The position numbers and the translations under genes were made by a program. From a phage: a stretch of 64,000 nt of DNA. The number at the start of each line of letters is the position of its first letter. The first letter of the stretch is position 1. The notes beneath the pieces are model-generated. The model was not told the DNA's origin and searched no databases. It was given only the letters and a program-made list of their open reading frames with translations. The DNA is taken from sequence record PZ445498.1; one strand, 5' to 3'. Positions 31,798 through 43,604 of this stretch are shown piece after piece.

Positions 31798-31826
31798 TTG
31801 CTAAACGCCTCAAAATTCTGTATAAT
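31798..31826 (+). promoter_or_regulatory. early promoter with no ORF downstream
   Basis: TTGCTA-17-TATAAT plus TCATAAATTAGAGAACAG leader, but no RBS/ATG; drives the ORF-free 1 kb segment. Confidence 0.7.
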
Positions 31827-31832
31827 AGATTC

Positions 31833-32854
31833 ATAAATTAGAGAACAGCGAGCCGATTACGCTGAGTGAGTTTAGTGATTCCTACTAGGATAGCTATTCC
31901 ACTGAATAGAGTCGGTGAGTTTAGAATGATCACCTGTTAGAGTTCCGAGTCCAGTCCGGTATATCCGGCCAAGTGACTAGAGTAACGAATATAGGTTCGA
32001 GACTTCTTGTAAAACTCGGGAGCTGTCCCGAAACCTCGTAAACTCTTCTCTAATTTATACAAAACGATGGTTCTCAACATGAGCTAGGCACAGTGTGAAA
32101 TACGGTGCGTGTCCCAGAGGTAGAAGACTGAAGGTTGGGCTTGAGAAAACCATGTAACTTTCAACGCTGACCCGTCTAGGATGCAAGTCAAGACGTATGT
32201 ATACCACAATGCGGCGATTGTCCATCGAATAGTGGGGTGTCGAACCGACTTATGTGATAACACTGCCAGATGCTCACAGGCTGACATTGAGCTTCGCTGC
32301 TCCTTCTGGAAAGAATCGGATAACTCGGGCTTATACCGGATAAGCATTCGCTGCTGGAGTACATACTATGACGGTTCAGGAGGTACGCCGCCTGATCAGT
32401 ATTAGGTTAGAATCGAAACAGCTAAACCACGAAAGGACTGGGATGCTTGCTGAGCTACCCCTACCTGATACATGCCTCAGCTAACTTCGCATCGAAAATC
32501 GGAGGTGCGATTTAACCAGACCGCGTAACTATGAGAGTGGGAAATGGTAAACTGTATAGCTTGACTCTAACTTAGTTAGGTGGCTACAGAGCCTTAATGG
32601 GACAGTCTAGATACTTAGTGAACCGCGGATAACGCTAAGAATACTGTGAAAATACTATGGGAGTCATGACCCGGATGTTGCCCGATCGCTATAGTGGCGA
32701 ATAACCACGAAGTCACCTTGACTTAAACTGGAAGATATTGTTCGACGGAAGGGCTGAAGAGCTTAATCTGAGGGGGCTGACCCTACCTACCGCCGGGTAT
32801 CTTTAAGAGTTCTTACGAGAGTTCTTAAACATACCTAAACATTAAGGAATACTA
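31833..32854 (+). ncRNA. candidate large non-coding RNA (promoter-driven ORF-free segment)
   Basis: Consensus early promoter at 31798-31826 with no RBS or ORF for ~1 kb; stops in all frames; G+C higher than flanks. Confidence 0.3.
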
Positions 32855-33364
32855 ATGAATCTAGGAACTACTTGTATATTTGATCACAGAGAAATGTGTT
32901 GCCCACATATCCTCTACGTAGTTCACTTTGCAGAGCGTCTTACGCTGGATGAAGCTCGTGAGAAAATGAGTGGAATTACTGGATATGACTTCCGTGAAGG
33001 TGAATACTTTAGCGTTGCTCTTGATTACATTGACAATACCCGTCTTTATCATCTAGTGCAGCTAGGGGAAGAAACTGATGAAGTGAAAATGGCGAAAGAT
33101 ACTTTACGTCGTTATCGTCCTCAGATTCTAGAACGTACACTTCGTGGTGAGTTCAGTGACCCATTCTTTTTGAAGTGTTATGATGCAGACGCTAATGAGT
33201 ACTTGGGGCGACAAAGGTTTTACAAAGAAATCAAAGAGTTTGTGGGTGAAAAATACGAAGCACTACTCGTTGATTCTAGAGCACGACGTGCAGCTAAAAA
33301 TGCTGAGAAATCAGCTAAAGCAGCACTAGAAAGTCAAACCAAACTGAACGAAATCGTTAAGTGA
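32855..33364 (+). CDS. hypothetical protein
   Basis: 169 aa ORF with AAGGAAT RBS. Confidence 0.5.
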   Translation: MNLGTTCIFDHREMCCPHILYVVHFAERLTLDEAREKMSGITGYDFREGEYFSVALDYIDNTRLYHLVQLGEETDEVKMAKDTLRRYRPQILERTLRGEFSDPFFLKCYDADANEYLGRQRFYKEIKEFVGEKYEALLVDSRARRAAKNAEKSAKAALESQTKLNEIVK

Positions 33365-33372
33365 TCTAATTT

Positions 33373-33447
33373 CGGGGTGTAGTCTAAGGGATAGGCAGGA
33401 GTCTTCTAAATTCCTTTATGCAGGTTCGAATCCTGTCACCTCGGCCA
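33373..33447 (+). tRNA. tRNA-Arg (anticodon TCT)
   Basis: Acceptor CGGGGTG/CACCTCG, D stem GTCT/AGGC, anticodon arm GGAGT-CTTCTAA-ATTCC, T arm GCAGG-TTCGAAT-CCTGT, GCCA 3' end. Confidence 0.8.
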
Positions 33448-33480
33448 ACTTTAATAACTGTAACTAAACAAAGGAAATAT

Positions 33481-34425
33481 ATGTTTACTAAAAACACTAA
33501 AGAACTAACTTCTGAGCAAAAAGTAATTCGTACTATTAAACGTTGGGGTGTTGGTGCTGCTGTTGGTCTTGGTGCTCTTATTCTGGCTCTCAATTCCTAT
33601 ACAGTTGTTCAGGATGGTACTGTTAAGACCCAAACCTTCCTGGGTAAAGTTAGCCCTAATCCTGTATTGCCAGGCTTCCATATTGTTAACCCATTTGCTT
33701 CTTTTGATACTTTTAGTACGAAAGATATTTCCATGAAACTGGATAAACTTCAGGTGCCTAGCCAGGATAAGTTTAAGTCTACTGTTGACATTACCGTTAT
33801 GTTGCAGTTTGATGGTGCTAAAGCTCCTATGAACCGTGTTAACGCAGGTACTCAGGATCAAGCTCTGAACAAGTACGTTGAAGAGAAGATGCTGTCTACG
33901 ATTCGTGAGTTTGGTAAGTCTGTACCAAAAGCACAAGATCTGTTCGACGCTAAGATTCAGGCTCAACTGCAAACCGCTATTCAGCAAGAAGTAGAAGAGT
34001 ACGCGCGTCCTTATGGCTACACCGTTAAGCAAGTATTCCTTCAGGATATTACTCTGCCACCGGTAATCATGGAACAGGTACAGAACACTAAAGTTCGTGA
34101 AGAACAAGTTAACGCTGCAAAAGCTGAACTAGCTCGTGTTGAACAAGAAGCACAGCAGAAAGTTAAGCAAGCTGAAGCTGATCGTTCTGCTCGTGAAAAT
34201 ATGGCAGTAGCTAACGAACGTGACGCAGATGCTAAACTGTACGCAGCTAAGAAAGAAGCTGAAGCTAACGCCGCTCTGCAACGTACCATTACTCCTGAAA
34301 TGATTCGTTGGAAGCAGCTGGAAGTTGAAATGCTTCGTGCTGAAAAATACCAAGGTGGTGTACCGCAGACTGTTGTTGGTACTGGCTACGATGGTCAAAT
34401 GATCATGGATATGCGTAACAAGTAA
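33481..34425 (+). CDS. SPFH/band-7 (prohibitin/HflK-like) membrane protein
   Basis: N-terminal TM anchor then PHB-like domain and long coiled-coil; start ATG 33481 (track ATG 33418 lies inside the tRNA). Confidence 0.7.
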   Translation: MFTKNTKELTSEQKVIRTIKRWGVGAAVGLGALILALNSYTVVQDGTVKTQTFLGKVSPNPVLPGFHIVNPFASFDTFSTKDISMKLDKLQVPSQDKFKSTVDITVMLQFDGAKAPMNRVNAGTQDQALNKYVEEKMLSTIREFGKSVPKAQDLFDAKIQAQLQTAIQQEVEEYARPYGYTVKQVFLQDITLPPVIMEQVQNTKVREEQVNAAKAELARVEQEAQQKVKQAEADRSARENMAVANERDADAKLYAAKKEAEANAALQRTITPEMIRWKQLEVEMLRAEKYQGGVPQTVVGTGYDGQMIMDMRNK

Positions 34426-34448: not shown

Positions 34449-34485
34449 AAGCCCGCGTTCCCTCCGAGAGCGCGGGCTTTTCTGT
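34449..34485 (+). terminator. rho-independent terminator after SPFH gene
   Basis: Hairpin AAGCCCGCG...CGCGGGCTT followed by TTTCTG. Confidence 0.65.
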
Positions 34486-41081: not shown

Positions 41082-41295
41082 AAACATCAGAGCAGCGTGA
41101 TGTACTGCAAAGACCCAAAGTCCGGGGTGGACTTCTTGATTCAAAGGAGCAGGCATTAATTATCATTCTAGCGTGGTGGAGAGGGGACACCAGCTTGCCG
41201 AGGGTAGAAGCTCGTTCGATTCGAGTGAAAGAATGGTTCTCGTAAATCCGCACAAGTGATAGTAGGTTCAAGTCCTACCTAGATTGACTCATTAT

Positions 41296-41369
41296 GCGTT
41301 CGTAGTTAAAAGGTATAATTTTTGGTTGCCAACCAGAAGTTGAGGGTTCGATTCCCTCCGACCGCACCA
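41296..41369 (+). tRNA. tRNA-Gly (anticodon GCC)
   Basis: Acceptor GCGTTCG/CGACCGC (one mismatch), D stem GTTA/TAAT, anticodon arm TTTGG-TTGCCAA-CCAGA, T arm GAGGG-TTCGATT-CCCTC, CCA. Confidence 0.7.
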
Positions 41370-41624
41370 AATCTTTGTAGGTCGCGTCACTTATAATGGG
41401 ACTACAGGGTAAACAAGGCGATGAGTTTCCGGCCGGTTCTAGTCGCTGAAAATCCTCCCGACCAGGTAGGTGTAGGTAAACGAAAGTTTACTTATTGAGT
41501 AGGTTCCGATAGATCGGCGAGTCTATTCTGGCATTTAAGAGAAGTCTCGCAAACTTCTTTGTCAGCCGTGGGGCTTGAACCCTCCAGGTGGCCTACGCAA
41601 TAAGTAAATTTATTAAAAATTCAT

Positions 41625-42848: not shown

Positions 42849-42874
42849 ATTAACTCAAAATAAGGAATTGCAAA

Positions 42875-43228
42875 TGCAATTATCAAGCAAGGTTCAAGGC
42901 TATTTCGGTCATGTAACAATGGAGTTCGCTATCTCTTAAAGGTTGGGACTTCGAACAAGATCTAGCTGAATTCTACAAAGATATTGATCTGAACGTACCA
43001 TACATAGGACTCTCCACTGGTCAAGAGATTACAGAAGCCGATGTATTCAAGGCAAGTCAAGGTGAGGTAACACCTAGTTTTGCCGAGTTCTGGTTAGGTA
43101 TCACACTGAAAGAAGATGCACCGGATGGTGGTGTGGTTATGCAGAGTATGCACTCTGGAAGCTCTGATTACCTTTTCGTTAGCGACGTTAAGGAACTACA
43201 AGAAATCGCTAAAAATGTACTTGCTTGA
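42875..43228 (+). pseudogene. ORF interrupted by in-frame TAA (21 codons, stop at 42938-42940, then ~95 more codons)
   Basis: ATG 42875 with AAGGA RBS; in-frame TAA; downstream frame stays open to TGA 43226-43228 with no ATG near its start. Confidence 0.35.
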
Positions 43229-43239
43229 TGCTTAATTTC
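43211..43239 (+). promoter_or_regulatory. early promoter ahead of ORF-free leader and tRNA-Ala/Leu
   Basis: TTGCTT-17-TATAAT plus TATAAATTGATGTGAAAATAG leader. Confidence 0.7.
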
Positions 43240-43604
43240 TTGTTATAATATTTATATAAATTGATGTGAAAATAGCTGCCTAGATATCAGGTGTATGACG
43301 TCTACACTAGCAGAGCTACCGAAAAAGAGATCCTCAGGATAAACGCCGTAGCAAAATTAGTCTGATATCCATCAATTTAGTTCACTAAGGTATTAGCTCG
43401 ACCTAGGACTGGCTGCCAAAAAGCACAGTTGCAATTAGACCCCCTAATGGCGGGGGATGCTTTGCAATAAGTTCTAGATTAGTCCACTAGATTCAGCGGC
43501 TACTGAATAGTGTATTGGGTTTGCGAGATGACGCGGTTCCTTCCGCTCGAAGCGAAGGTGCTGTAGTTACGCCGAGCTAATAGCCTTAGTAAACTAAAGA
43601 ATTT

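What the first reader, a model, noticed from the sequence alone, without database searches (positions are those of the whole stretch)
31798..32854. Promoter-driven ~1 kb ORF-free segment: candidate large structured RNA
A full-consensus early promoter (TTGCTA-17-TATAAT at 31798-31826, with the conserved leader box) is followed by ~1,020 bp with no RBS or start codon and stops in every frame; the only listed ORFs are two overlapping opposite-strand reading frames of 87 and 74 aa. The segment is visibly more G+C-balanced than the surrounding AT-rich coding DNA and contains local hairpins (for example CCGG-TATAT-CCGG near 31956-31968). The next gene (32855) has its own RBS. In a tightly packed phage genome a kilobase of transcribed non-coding DNA is unusual; it resembles the large structured RNAs that tend to sit near tRNA clusters in phages.
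Basis: partly seen in the sequence, partly recalled or inferred. Interest (0 to 1): 0.8.

Follow-up and report, generated by a model that had tools for sequence, protein, structure and literature searches.

The report
Large structured phage RNA (T5 RNAX ortholog)
The ORF-free kilobase is the counterpart of phage T5's "RNAX", a promoter-driven non-coding RNA of unknown function: its helices are conserved by compensatory mutations across T5-like phages, it is absent from Rfam, and no paper on it was found.

Summary
Window 31798-31826 is a T5-early-type promoter, one of 10 in the window (0 expected by chance). It is followed by about 1 kb (31833-32839) with no ORF over 87 aa and a GC fraction of 0.45-0.49, against 0.33-0.42 in the flanks.

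The interpretation also holds. T5 RefSeq annotates the same position as misc_RNA rnaX, "stable RNA with unknown functions", running from promoter P16-17 to tRNA-Arg.

- **Not coding.** Across 21-41 relatives the segment shows no codon periodicity (153/148/141, p=0.78), and most indels are not multiples of 3. Flanking genes are strongly periodic.
- **Structured.** In the core, 98.9% of cells are paired, against 43% or less in slid controls. Eleven of 29 pairs show compensatory changes. G·U pairs place the fold on the + strand.
- **Modular.** Conserved islands alternate with swapped modules. Most relatives carry a tRNA-like domain on a 12-bp stalk. This window keeps the stalk and has a shorter insert instead.
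- **Restricted.** The family was found only in Demerecviridae.
- **Not a known family.** Rfam 15 gives no match (GOLLD, ROOL, introns).

The function is unknown. The locus lies inside the st(0) deletion, which viable T5 mutants carry. I file it as a new member of a known but uncharacterised RNA, of moderate to high interest.

The parts
31798..31826 (+). T5-early-type sigma-70 promoter (TTGCTA, 17-nt spacer, TATAAT); ortholog of T5 promoter P16-17
   Evidence: It is one of 10 family members in the window, against 0 expected. It is conserved in all Markadamsvirinae loci. T5 annotates the site as promoter P16-17.
31833..32839 (+). RNAX-family non-coding RNA, about 1007 nt. The 5' end is inferred at +7 from the -10 box; the T5 annotation would place it at 31840. 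The 3' end is inferred from T5 and SH9, where the homologous ...ATACYTAAA abuts tRNA-Arg.
   Evidence: T5 rnaX; homology; not coding; covariation.
31833..32058 (+). 5' domain closed by helix P1 (31833-31848 pairs with 32043-32058). It contains hairpins at 31847-31865 (CAGCG/CGCTG), 31956-31968 (CCGG-TATAT-CCGG) and 32016-32031 (TCGGGA-GCTG-TCCCGA).
   Evidence: Inverted repeat I1. In every long form, the P1 3' strand is the best partner of the 5' 17-mer in the whole RNA: -10 to -17 kcal/mol, against a median of -2.5. An AG insertion in TrudiGerster is matched by a CT insertion opposite. T5 and EC122 reduce the domain to a 32-nt hairpin but keep P1.
32059..32227 (+). Variable module, present only in some lineages and absent in Shin27, Sepoy, Stitch and T5
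32228..32351 (+). Conserved core. It comprises the invariant AUAGUGGGGUG, a 12-bp stalk (32245-32258 pairs with 32315-32328), an inner stem (32266-32270 pairs with 32305-32309) and a hairpin (32329-32333 pairs with 32341-32345).
   Evidence: Alignment A1 with RNAalifold and pair counts. Model R1 scores the window at 100.3 bits, E=1.4e-24. The MFE fold of the window sequence alone reproduces the stalk.
32271..32304 (+). Short two-hairpin insert that occupies the place of the 74-nt tRNA-like domain carried by most relatives
   Evidence: ARAGORN and the Rfam tRNA model find nothing here in the window. They do find a tRNA-like element at the homologous site in 17 of 21 relatives. The Rfam tRNA model scores it 38.3 bits in T5, above the gathering score of 29.
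32352..32659 (+). Central domain with conserved islands. These include CGAAACAGCUAAACCACGA (32413-32431) and the hairpin 32487-32510 (TCGCA/TGCGA), whose conserved loop is UCGAAAAUCGGAGG.
   Evidence: The hairpin stem covaries: TCGCA/TGCGA, TCACA/TGTGA, TTACATA/TATGTAA.
32660..32671 (+). Nearly invariant 12-mer GGAGUCAUGACC. It forms an apical loop that presents the self-complementary hexamer UCAUGA, closed by a partly covarying stem.
   Evidence: It is unique in the window. It is present, allowing at most one mismatch, in all 40 sequences examined, and also in KKP_3711 and Pantoea AAS21. The closing stem is shown.
32703..32733 (+). Nearly invariant AACCAC, then hairpin AGUCA-CCU-UGACU (32711-32723), then UAAACUGGAA
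   Evidence: This unit is duplicated in T5.
32741..32795 (+). 3' multi-helix junction (GACGG/CCGYC, AGGG/CCCU, GGGGG/CCC)
   Evidence: Support is partial: pairs 68-85 and 70-83 of alignment A4 vary on both sides.
32796..32835 (+). 3'-terminal long hairpin, about 16-18 bp and rich in G·U. In T5 and SH9 it ends 4-5 nt before tRNA-Arg.
   Evidence: Inverted repeat I2. Alignment A4 gives 16 pairs with a few compensatory changes, including in KKP_3711. No T-run follows it, and no + strand terminator occurs before 34449.
32855..33364 (+). ORF169, a lineage-specific protein gene inserted between the RNA and tRNA-Arg. It is co-transcribed context, not part of the RNA.
   Evidence: Substitutions show third-position bias. 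It has no Pfam or PHROG match.
33373..33447 (+). tRNA-Arg(UCU), the ancestral 3' neighbour of the RNA

Best explanation
Window 31833-32839 (+ strand) encodes the Epseptimavirus version of phage T5 'RNAX', a large non-coding RNA of about 1 kb.

Shown or directly supported:
- A T5-early-class sigma-70 promoter (31798-31826) starts an operon that has no terminator before 34449.
- Its first kilobase is not translated. It folds into a modular, multi-domain structure: a 5' domain closed by helix P1, a conserved core built on a 12-bp stalk, a central domain, and a 3' domain.
- The 3' domain carries nearly invariant loop motifs and a terminal hairpin of about 18 bp.
- The family is confined to T5-like phages (Demerecviridae). 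It always sits at the head of the tRNA region, ancestrally abutting tRNA-Arg(UCU).

Inferred:
- In T5 and SH9, RNase P cleavage at tRNA-Arg would release the RNA with the hairpin as a 3' protective end.
- In this window, ORF169 has been inserted after the hairpin. The RNA is therefore either cut off by another endonuclease or remains as a leader.

Hypothesis, at roughly one chance in three: the mature RNA acts in trans as an abundant scaffold or decoy that engages the tRNA, translation or RNA-processing machinery, or tRNA-directed host defences. The tRNA-shaped domain on the stalk in most relatives points this way. It is not a cis regulator. Like ROOL, it is dispensable in the laboratory.
For: - Homology and annotation: T5 records annotate rnaX/T5s08, 'stable RNA with unknown functions', between promoter P16-17 and tRNA-Arg. 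The window shares the promoter and leader, the core block and the 3' block with it.
- Not coding: substitutions by position mod 3 are 153/148/141 (p=0.78), and 133 indels are not multiples of 3 against 34 that are. Flanking genes give p<1e-15. The internal ORFs have no family match.
- Structure: on the MAFFT alignment A1 of 20 distinct sequences, 98.9% of cells pair, against 30-43% in slid controls. Eleven pairs carry two-sided changes, against 2 or fewer in controls, and 0 of 500 shuffles reach the covariation score. On 30 distinct sequences, 17 of 29 pairs are compensatory. P1 is kept through compensatory indels and domain loss. The 3' hairpin is shown.
- Strand: frequent G·U pairs fit only the + strand.
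- Promoter family.
- No terminator.
- Distribution: Markadamsvirinae, Sugarlandvirus, Enterobacter, Pantoea and Providencia phages. Twelve of the 13 metagenome pattern hits are confirmed T5-like contigs; tRNA-Arg lies downstream in the four that hold enough flanking DNA.
- Selection: core islands stay 85-97% identical between coliphage-type and Klebsiella phages, whereas the neighbouring hydrolase is 65% identical at the protein level.
Against: - No expression data could be examined here. 'Stable RNA' rests on a GenBank note.
- MFE z-scores are not significant.
- Much of the 5' and 3' domains is invariant or lineage-specific, so covariation support is strong only for the core, P1 and a few hairpins.
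- The tRNA-like domain on which the trans-acting idea leans is absent from this window's copy.
- The absence of a terminator means a cis-leader role cannot be excluded.
- The invariant AGTCA...TGAC(T) palindromes could be DNA-level protein sites.
- The locus lies inside the st(0) deletion. T5st(0) is viable (established knowledge), so any function is conditional.
Confidence: 0.78

Rival explanations
1. It is a cis-acting leader. The kilobase would be the structured 5' part of the RNAX-(ORF169)-tRNA-Arg-SPFH operon. Its job would be to control the processing, stability or timing of the downstream tRNA and mRNA, with no function as a free RNA.
For: No + strand terminator lies between the promoter and 34449. 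The RNA directly abuts tRNA-Arg in T5, SH9 and others. In this window the 3' hairpin is followed at once by the ORF169 ribosome-binding site.
Against: The RNA persists while its downstream neighbour changes. ORF169 is inserted in some phages. Sugarlandvirus has two small CDSs downstream instead of an adjacent tRNA-Arg. Providencia has other ORFs. A structure of 0.65-1.3 kb with many invariant loop motifs is far more than known tRNA leaders need. T5 annotators call it a stable RNA.
Confidence: 0.13
2. It is a DNA-level element. The conserved palindromes and hairpins would act in DNA, as a replication origin, an R-loop primer site, or operators for a phage DNA-binding protein. The transcript would be incidental.
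For: The invariant motifs AGTCATGAC and AGTCACCTTGACT are imperfect DNA palindromes about 50 bp apart, and one is duplicated in T5. A strong promoter feeding into structured DNA recalls transcription-primed origins (from general knowledge).
Against: Covarying helices span up to 225 nt and contain many G·U pairs that are strand-specific, which double-stranded DNA sites do not need. There is no GC-skew inflection here. The palindromes lie in loops of covarying stems. The T5 annotation is an RNA.
Confidence: 0.04
3. It is a graveyard of decayed tRNA genes or neutral spacer at the edge of the tRNA cluster.
For: A tRNA-like element is found at the homologous site in 17 of 21 relatives. It passes the Rfam tRNA gathering score in T5, Pantoea AAS21 and KKP_3711. 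Some records annotate it as tRNA-Sec, tRNA-Ser or tRNA-OTHER. The region is a mosaic of swapped modules.
Against: There is only one tRNA-like unit per locus, and it sits on a covarying 12-bp stalk that is kept even where the tRNA-like part is replaced. The rest has no tRNA similarity even at E<=10. Neutral spacer would not keep islands at 85-97% identity across genera, nor compensatory changes.
Confidence: 0.03
4. It is hidden protein coding: a frameshifted gene or several small conserved ORFs.
For: Annotators have placed hypothetical CDSs of 30-60 aa over the region in several genomes.
Against: There is no codon periodicity, and about 80% of indels are not multiples of 3. Stops occur in all frames. 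The 87-aa and 74-aa ORFs have no Pfam or PHROG match. The annotated small CDSs differ between genomes in position and strand.
Confidence: 0.02

Closest known systems
Phage T5 RNAX (gene rnaX, T5s08; NC_005859 40848-41566; AY734508)
   Same: It occupies the same locus: after the YqeY-like gene, driven by promoter P16-17, and upstream of tRNA-Arg(UCU) and the SPFH lipoprotein gene. It shares the leader and P1 stem, the core stalk block, the GGAGUCAUGACC, AACCAC and AGUCACCUUGACU-UAAACUGGA motifs, and the 3' hairpin.
   Different: T5 RNAX is annotated at 719 nt; this copy is about 1007 nt. T5 lacks the 5' domain of about 200 nt (only a 32-nt P1 hairpin remains) and the 32059-32227 module. T5 carries the 74-nt tRNA-like domain, which this window has replaced with a 34-nt insert. 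T5 also has a duplicated 3' motif. Most interior sequence cannot be aligned by BLAST, which covers only 4-17%.
GOLLD RNA (Rfam RF01998)
   Same: It is a large RNA (over 800 nt) of unknown function, encoded by phages and prophages and often near tRNA islands. [quoted passage not shown] Here the RNA sits at the head of a phage tRNA cluster. It has a conserved 3' block and a variable, modular 5' part, and most relatives carry an embedded tRNA-like unit.
   Different: There is no match to the Rfam model even at E<=10. The hosts differ: Enterobacterales T5-like lytic phages. Multimeric nanocage formation is untested.
ROOL RNA (Rfam RF03087)
   Same: It is a large ornate RNA of about 580 nt found in phages and prophages near tRNAs. 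It is abundant but non-essential, and its function is unknown. Here too the locus is dispensable, because it lies inside the st(0) deletion.
   Different: There is no Rfam match, the secondary structure is unrelated, and the taxonomic range differs.
RNAs with a tRNA-mimic module on a stem (bacterial Y-RNA-like YrlA; tmRNA), recalled from memory rather than tested
   Same: In most family members a tRNA-shaped domain is fused to a long helix of a larger non-coding RNA. It has an acceptor-like stem, a canonical T arm GUAGG-UUCGAAU-CCUAC with covariation, and a D loop containing GG.
   Different: Here the stalk continues from the acceptor stem, so no free CCA end exists unless the RNA is processed. 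The anticodon arm is degenerate or extended. ARAGORN finds no tmRNA and Rfam finds no Y RNA or tmRNA. The window's own copy lacks the module.

Membership tests
T5 RNAX (rnaX) family | Position: transcribed from the promoter after the YqeY-like gene, at the head of the tRNA region and upstream of tRNA-Arg(UCU) | tested here: met
   ORF169 is inserted between the RNA and tRNA-Arg in this lineage.
T5 RNAX (rnaX) family | Sequence and structure homology to T5 RNAX | tested here: met
   A covariance model built from the core hits T5 at 176.6 bits and the window at 100.3 bits. The leader and P1, the 3' motifs and the hairpin are shared. The interior is only partly alignable.
T5 RNAX (rnaX) family | Accumulates as a stable RNA in infected cells | not testable with these tools
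   Only the RefSeq note 'stable RNA with unknown functions' is available. No paper was found.
GOLLD RNA (RF01998) | Match to the family covariance model (conserved 3' domain) | tested here: not met
   cmscan of the region alone at E<=10 gives 0 matches. The 5-kb scan, the scan of relatives and the whole-window gathering scan also give none.
GOLLD RNA (RF01998) | Phage or prophage location near tRNA islands, with tRNA sometimes embedded | tested here: met
   The embedded tRNA-like unit is found in relatives, not in this window.
GOLLD / ROOL | Self-assembly into homo-oligomeric nanocages | not testable with these tools
   The only lead is the nearly invariant palindromic loop UCAUGA.
ROOL RNA (RF03087) | Match to the family covariance model | tested here: not met
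tRNA (RF00005) | Cloverleaf scoring above the gathering threshold, with a normal anticodon loop | tested here: not met
   In the window region, ARAGORN finds none, even at -ps85, and Rfam finds none at E<=10. Relatives score 30-39 bits against a gathering score of 29. Their anticodon loops lack U33 or are replaced by an extended stem, and the unit is embedded in a stalk.
Group I / group II introns, RNase P RNA, tmRNA, 6S, Y RNA | Match to the Rfam covariance models; tmRNA also by ARAGORN | tested here: not met
Protein-coding gene | Codon-periodic substitution, indels that preserve the frame, an open frame | tested here: not met

The most novel reading that the evidence does not exclude
RNAX may be the enterobacterial-phage counterpart of GOLLD and ROOL. 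On this reading it is an abundant RNA that self-associates, for example through the nearly invariant UCAUGA loop. It would either display a tRNA-shaped domain or bind tRNA-handling factors, and so protect the phage's tRNA-based counter-defence or sequester host tRNA-directed nucleases, RNases or ribosomes. Lineages such as this window would have swapped the tRNA mimic for another module under an arms race. Because T5 and E. coli are fully tractable, this would give the first genetic handle on what large phage RNAs next to tRNA islands do.
Probability: 0.2. Interest if true: 0.85.

Novelty: new member of a known kind. Interest (0 to 1): 0.6.

Why it matters
Large, elaborately folded bacterial and phage RNAs are rare. 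The best-known phage-linked ones (GOLLD, ROOL) still have no known function, and their hosts are hard to work with.

T5 RNAX has sat in GenBank as a 'stable RNA with unknown functions'. It is not in Rfam 15, and no paper on it turned up in the library searched. This work adds four points:

- It is a conserved, covarying, modular RNA family of 0.65-1.3 kb.
- It is found across Demerecviridae phages infecting E. coli, Salmonella, Klebsiella, Enterobacter, Pantoea and Providencia.
- In most members it contains a tRNA-shaped domain on a stalk.
- It always sits at the head of the phage tRNA island.

That makes an old annotation a testable object in one of the best model phage-host pairs. This matters now that phage tRNA clusters are being linked to evasion of tRNA-targeting defences (PMC11555353).

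There is also a practical benefit. Many genome records mis-annotate this locus as hypothetical CDSs, tRNA-Sec, tRNA-Ser(ACT) or tRNA-OTHER. A covariance model would fix that.

Tried and rejected
- Rfam scans found only ordinary tRNAs and nothing in the RNA itself. I scanned 5 kb at E<=1, the region alone at E<=10, six relatives at E<=0.1, and the whole window at gathering score. GOLLD, ROOL, introns, RNase P RNA, tmRNA and Y RNA are therefore rejected as family assignments.
- MFE z-scores of three 300-nt pieces were -1.54, +0.40 and -1.32. They are uninformative, and thermodynamic stability alone would not have flagged this RNA.
- Full-length MFE folds of both strands have no shuffle control above 1000 nt and were not used.
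- RNAalifold on the global alignment projected onto the window was muddled by non-homologous swapped modules. I used domain-wise alignments instead.
- Internal direct repeats are only short two-copy chance-level matches.
- Pfam and PHROGs searches on the 87-aa and 74-aa ORFs and on ORF169 found nothing.
- Literature searches for T5 RNAX, stable RNAs, a T5 transcriptome, and structured RNA in Demerecviridae found nothing relevant.
- The IMG/VR pattern scan returned mostly the same isolate genomes, cut into chunks, and added little diversity.
- tblastn with the SPFH protein and the cell-wall hydrolase, intended to find remote T5-like phages, hit many unrelated phages. The YqeY-like protein worked better.
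- A weak full-length hit of model R1 at window 41258-41408 is tRNA-Gly plus a T-arm-like remnant, not a second RNAX core.
- The idea that GUGGGGUG pairs with ACCCUAC was suggested by the projected alifold. I dropped it because T5-type members lack the partner sequence.
Full report
**What is in the sequence**

The window is a T5-like (Epseptimavirus-type, Demerecviridae) phage segment. It carries 26 tRNA genes between 33.4 and 46.6 kb.

At 31798-31826 lies TTGCTA, a 17-nt spacer, and TATAAT. Including its initial transcribed box (TATAATAGATTCATAAAT), this is one of 10 copies of the T5 early-promoter family in the window. Shuffles give 0.00.

Neither matches Pfam or PHROGs.

GC is 0.45-0.49, against 0.33-0.42 in the flanks. 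The CCGG-TATAT-CCGG hairpin is at 31956-31968.

Short ATG ORFs do exist. The -35 box matches the phage-family consensus, not the sigma-70 consensus. With a 100-aa ORF threshold, this is the largest ORF-free stretch of the window outside the tRNA cluster and the window ends.

**It is already named in T5**

BLAST against phage genomes finds the region in more than 500 T5-like records. The matches come as collinear pieces separated by divergent segments.

T5 records annotate the same position:
- GenBank AY734508 carries misc_RNA rnaX 'RNAX', 719 nt, running from promoter P16-17 up to tRNA-Arg.

The 8208-bp AY734508 record is exactly the segment removed in the T5 st(0) deletion mutant (coordinates 33667/41891). 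RNAX therefore lies inside a deletion carried by a viable laboratory phage. The viability of T5st(0) is established knowledge, not tested here.

No paper on RNAX turned up in the library.

**Not coding**

I collected 21 orthologous regions. They are 686-1327 bp long, all ORF-poor, and all richer in GC than their upstream kilobase.

| Segment | Distinct substitutions by position mod 3 | p |
|---|---|---|
| Non-coding region | 153/148/141 | 0.78 |
| YqeY-like gene | 38/16/98 | <1e-15 |
| ORF169 | 49/31/144 | <1e-15 |
| SPFH gene | 36/11/182 | <1e-15 |
| Hydrolase gene | 38/25/116 | <1e-15 |

In the non-coding region, 133 indel runs are not multiples of 3 and 34 are.

**Structured**

The region is a mosaic. 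Conserved islands are the leader, 32228-32267, 32308-32350, 32414-32476, 32483-32526 and 32701-32839. They stay 85-97% identical even to Klebsiella Sugarlandvirus phages, whose neighbouring hydrolase is only 65% identical at the protein level. Between the islands, modules are swapped, inserted or lost.

*Core.* I made a MAFFT alignment of the core from 20 distinct sequences (A1). RNAalifold predicts 29 pairs.
- 98.9% of cells form standard pairs, against 30-43% when the 3' partners are slid by 1-3 columns.
- 11 pairs show changes on both sides, against 2 or fewer in the slid controls.
- 0 of 500 shuffles reach the observed covariation score.
- The main feature is a 12-bp stalk (window 32245-32258 with 32315-32328). 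Five of its pairs alternate between A-U/C-G or G-C/C-G types, and none is broken in any sequence.
- A covariance model built from A1 (R1) recovers the core in 41 loci. On the 30 distinct sequences, 17 of 29 pairs are compensatory. That alignment is fitted to the model and so leans towards it.

*Helix P1.* The first 16 nt of the transcript (31833-31848) pair with 32043-32058.
- In every long form, the P1 3' strand is the best partner of the 5' 17-mer in the whole RNA: -10 to -17 kcal/mol, against a median of -2.5.
- TrudiGerster has an AG insertion matched by a CT insertion on the other strand.
- T5 and EC122 have lost the enclosed 200 nt but keep P1 as a 32-nt hairpin.

*Other helices.*
- The hairpin 32487-32510 covaries: TCGCA/TGCGA, TCACA/TGTGA, TTACATA/TATGTAA.
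- The 3'-terminal hairpin 32796-32835 has 16 pairs, with G·U pairs and a few compensatory changes.

The many G·U pairs mean the + strand is the folded strand, which is the strand the promoter reads.

MFE z-scores are unremarkable (-1.5, +0.4, -1.3). The case rests on comparative evidence.

**A tRNA-like module in the relatives but not here**

ARAGORN at a relaxed threshold finds one 74-nt tRNA-like element at the same place in 17 of 21 loci, including inside T5 RNAX.
- It has an acceptor-like stem and a canonical, covarying T arm (GUAGG/GCAGG/GUGGG-UUCGAAU-...).
- Its D loop contains GG.
- Its anticodon arm is abnormal: no U33 and 'anticodons' ACU or UCA. In some Sugarlandvirus phages it is an extended stem-loop instead.
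- The Rfam tRNA model scores it 38.3 bits in T5, 39.2 in Pantoea AAS21 and 30.1 in KKP_3711, against a gathering score of 29.
- It sits on top of the covarying stalk, so it is a domain of the larger RNA and not a free-standing gene.

In this window, and in SH9, Eps7 and Sepoy, the stalk and a 5-bp inner stem remain. The cloverleaf is replaced by a 34-nt two-hairpin insert (32271-32304). The Providencia phage has yet another insert.

**Distribution**

R1 finds the core in these groups:
- Tequintavirus, Epseptimavirus and Sugarlandvirus
- Enterobacter phage KKP_3711 (175 bits)
- Pantoea phage AAS21 (142 bits)
- Providencia phage PSTCR5, genus Priunavirus (61 bits, E=3e-14)

A metagenome scan with a 20-base core pattern gave 13 loci. 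Twelve are confirmed by R1 and are T5-like contigs. The four contigs that hold enough downstream sequence each have tRNA-Arg(UCU) 450-1100 nt downstream. I found no member outside Demerecviridae.

**Transcription-unit context**

No terminator-like site occurs on the + strand between the promoter and the strong hairpin at 34449-34479. That hairpin corresponds to T5's annotated bidirectional terminator.

The unit therefore reads promoter, RNAX, ORF169, tRNA-Arg, SPFH gene.

In T5, SH9 and others, the 3' hairpin ends 4-5 nt before tRNA-Arg. RNase P cleavage there would release the RNA with a stable 3' hairpin; this step is inferred. In this window, ORF169 is inserted after the hairpin. It is a real gene by codon periodicity but has no family match.

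**How it most likely works**

- Shown: promoter-driven, non-coding, + strand-structured, modular, and conserved under purifying selection across genera.
- Inferred: released as a stable RNA by tRNA-processing cleavage.
- Hypothesis, about one chance in three: it acts in trans as a scaffold or decoy linked to tRNA, translation or RNA-processing factors, or to tRNA-directed host defences.

Three observations lean towards the hypothesis. The RNA sits at the head of the tRNA island. Most members carry a tRNA-shaped domain. Phage tRNAs have a reported role in evading tRNA-targeting immunity (PMC11555353).

A nearly invariant loop motif offers a second lead. GGAGUCAUGACC (32660-32671) is unique in the window. 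It is present, allowing at most one mismatch, in all 40 sequences examined, plus KKP_3711 and Pantoea AAS21. It presents the self-complementary hexamer UCAUGA on a partly covarying stem. This makes it a candidate kissing-loop contact, by analogy with the homo-oligomeric ROOL, GOLLD and OLE RNAs. The same motif and AGTCACCTTGACT are also DNA palindromes, so a protein-binding or DNA-level role for them is not excluded.

**Comparison with known families**

- Membership in the T5 RNAX family is met by position and by sequence and structure homology.
- GOLLD and ROOL share the lifestyle: phage-borne, next to tRNA islands, large, of unknown function, and dispensable. GOLLD additionally has a conserved 3' region, a variable 5' region and embedded tRNAs.
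- Their covariance models do not match. This is therefore an analogue, not a member.
- Introns, RNase P RNA, tmRNA and Y RNA are likewise excluded as family assignments.

**Verdict**

The element is a new, structurally distinct member of an RNA that was already annotated in T5 but is essentially uncharacterised and absent from Rfam. Interest is moderate to high. The function is open, and the system is unusually tractable.

Noticed in passing
window 32855-33364: ORF169 is a real gene by third-position substitution bias, with no Pfam or PHROG match. It sits between the RNAX 3' hairpin and tRNA-Arg only in some phages (S126, HMD-P2, Shin27, 1-23, S124). It is absent in T5, SH9 and Eps7, so it looks like a lineage-specific insertion.
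   Followed up: partly
L015 (phage H8) 1517-1999: In phage H8 a 160-aa HNH_3 endonuclease ORF (Pfam E=1.2e-11) lies directly after the RNAX promoter, in place of the 5' P1 domain. The core and 3' domains are kept. The 5' domain therefore appears expendable and is a landing site for a homing-endonuclease gene.
   Followed up: partly
window 33418-34425: The mechanically listed 335-aa ORF overlaps tRNA-Arg (33373-33447). tblastn matches in relatives begin at residue 17-19, so the true start of this SPFH/Band_7 protein is probably downstream of the tRNA.
   Followed up: partly
window 41258-41295: A T-arm-like remnant (GTAGG-TTCAAGT-CCTAC, preceded by GATAGT) lies just upstream of tRNA-Gly. It was picked up as a weak full-length hit of the RNAX core model (24.3 bits). 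It may be a decayed tRNA fragment.
   Followed up: partly
window 42849-43604: About 750 nt between tRNA-Val and tRNA-Ala has no ORF of 60 aa or more on either strand. T5 annotates several other 'stable RNAs' in its tRNA region, for example rna3 in AY734508. This could be another non-coding RNA.
   Followed up: no
L002, L003, L009, L014, L016, L019, L020, L054, L055 (public records): GenBank records annotate the RNAX locus inconsistently. Some place hypothetical CDSs of 30-60 aa on either strand. Others label the embedded tRNA-like element tRNA-Sec(TCA), tRNA-Ser(ACT) or tRNA-OTHER. These are probable mis-annotations.
   Followed up: yes
window 34449-34479: A strong intrinsic terminator (12-bp stem with 8 G-C pairs, followed by a T-run) ends the RNAX, tRNA-Arg and SPFH unit. 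It corresponds to T5's annotated 'efficient bidirectional rho-independent terminator', next to a major DNA nick site.
   Followed up: partly
window 9185-59246 (10 sites): Ten copies of the extended T5 early-promoter pattern (-35, 17-nt spacer, TATAAT, plus the AGATTCATAAAT box) occur on both strands, against 0 expected by chance.
   Followed up: no
L004 (T5) about 820-960: T5 RNAX carries a tandem duplication of the AGUCACCUUGAC(U/A)-UAAACUGGAA unit, separated by about 85 nt. It is seen only in the T5 row of the 21 aligned loci.
   Followed up: no
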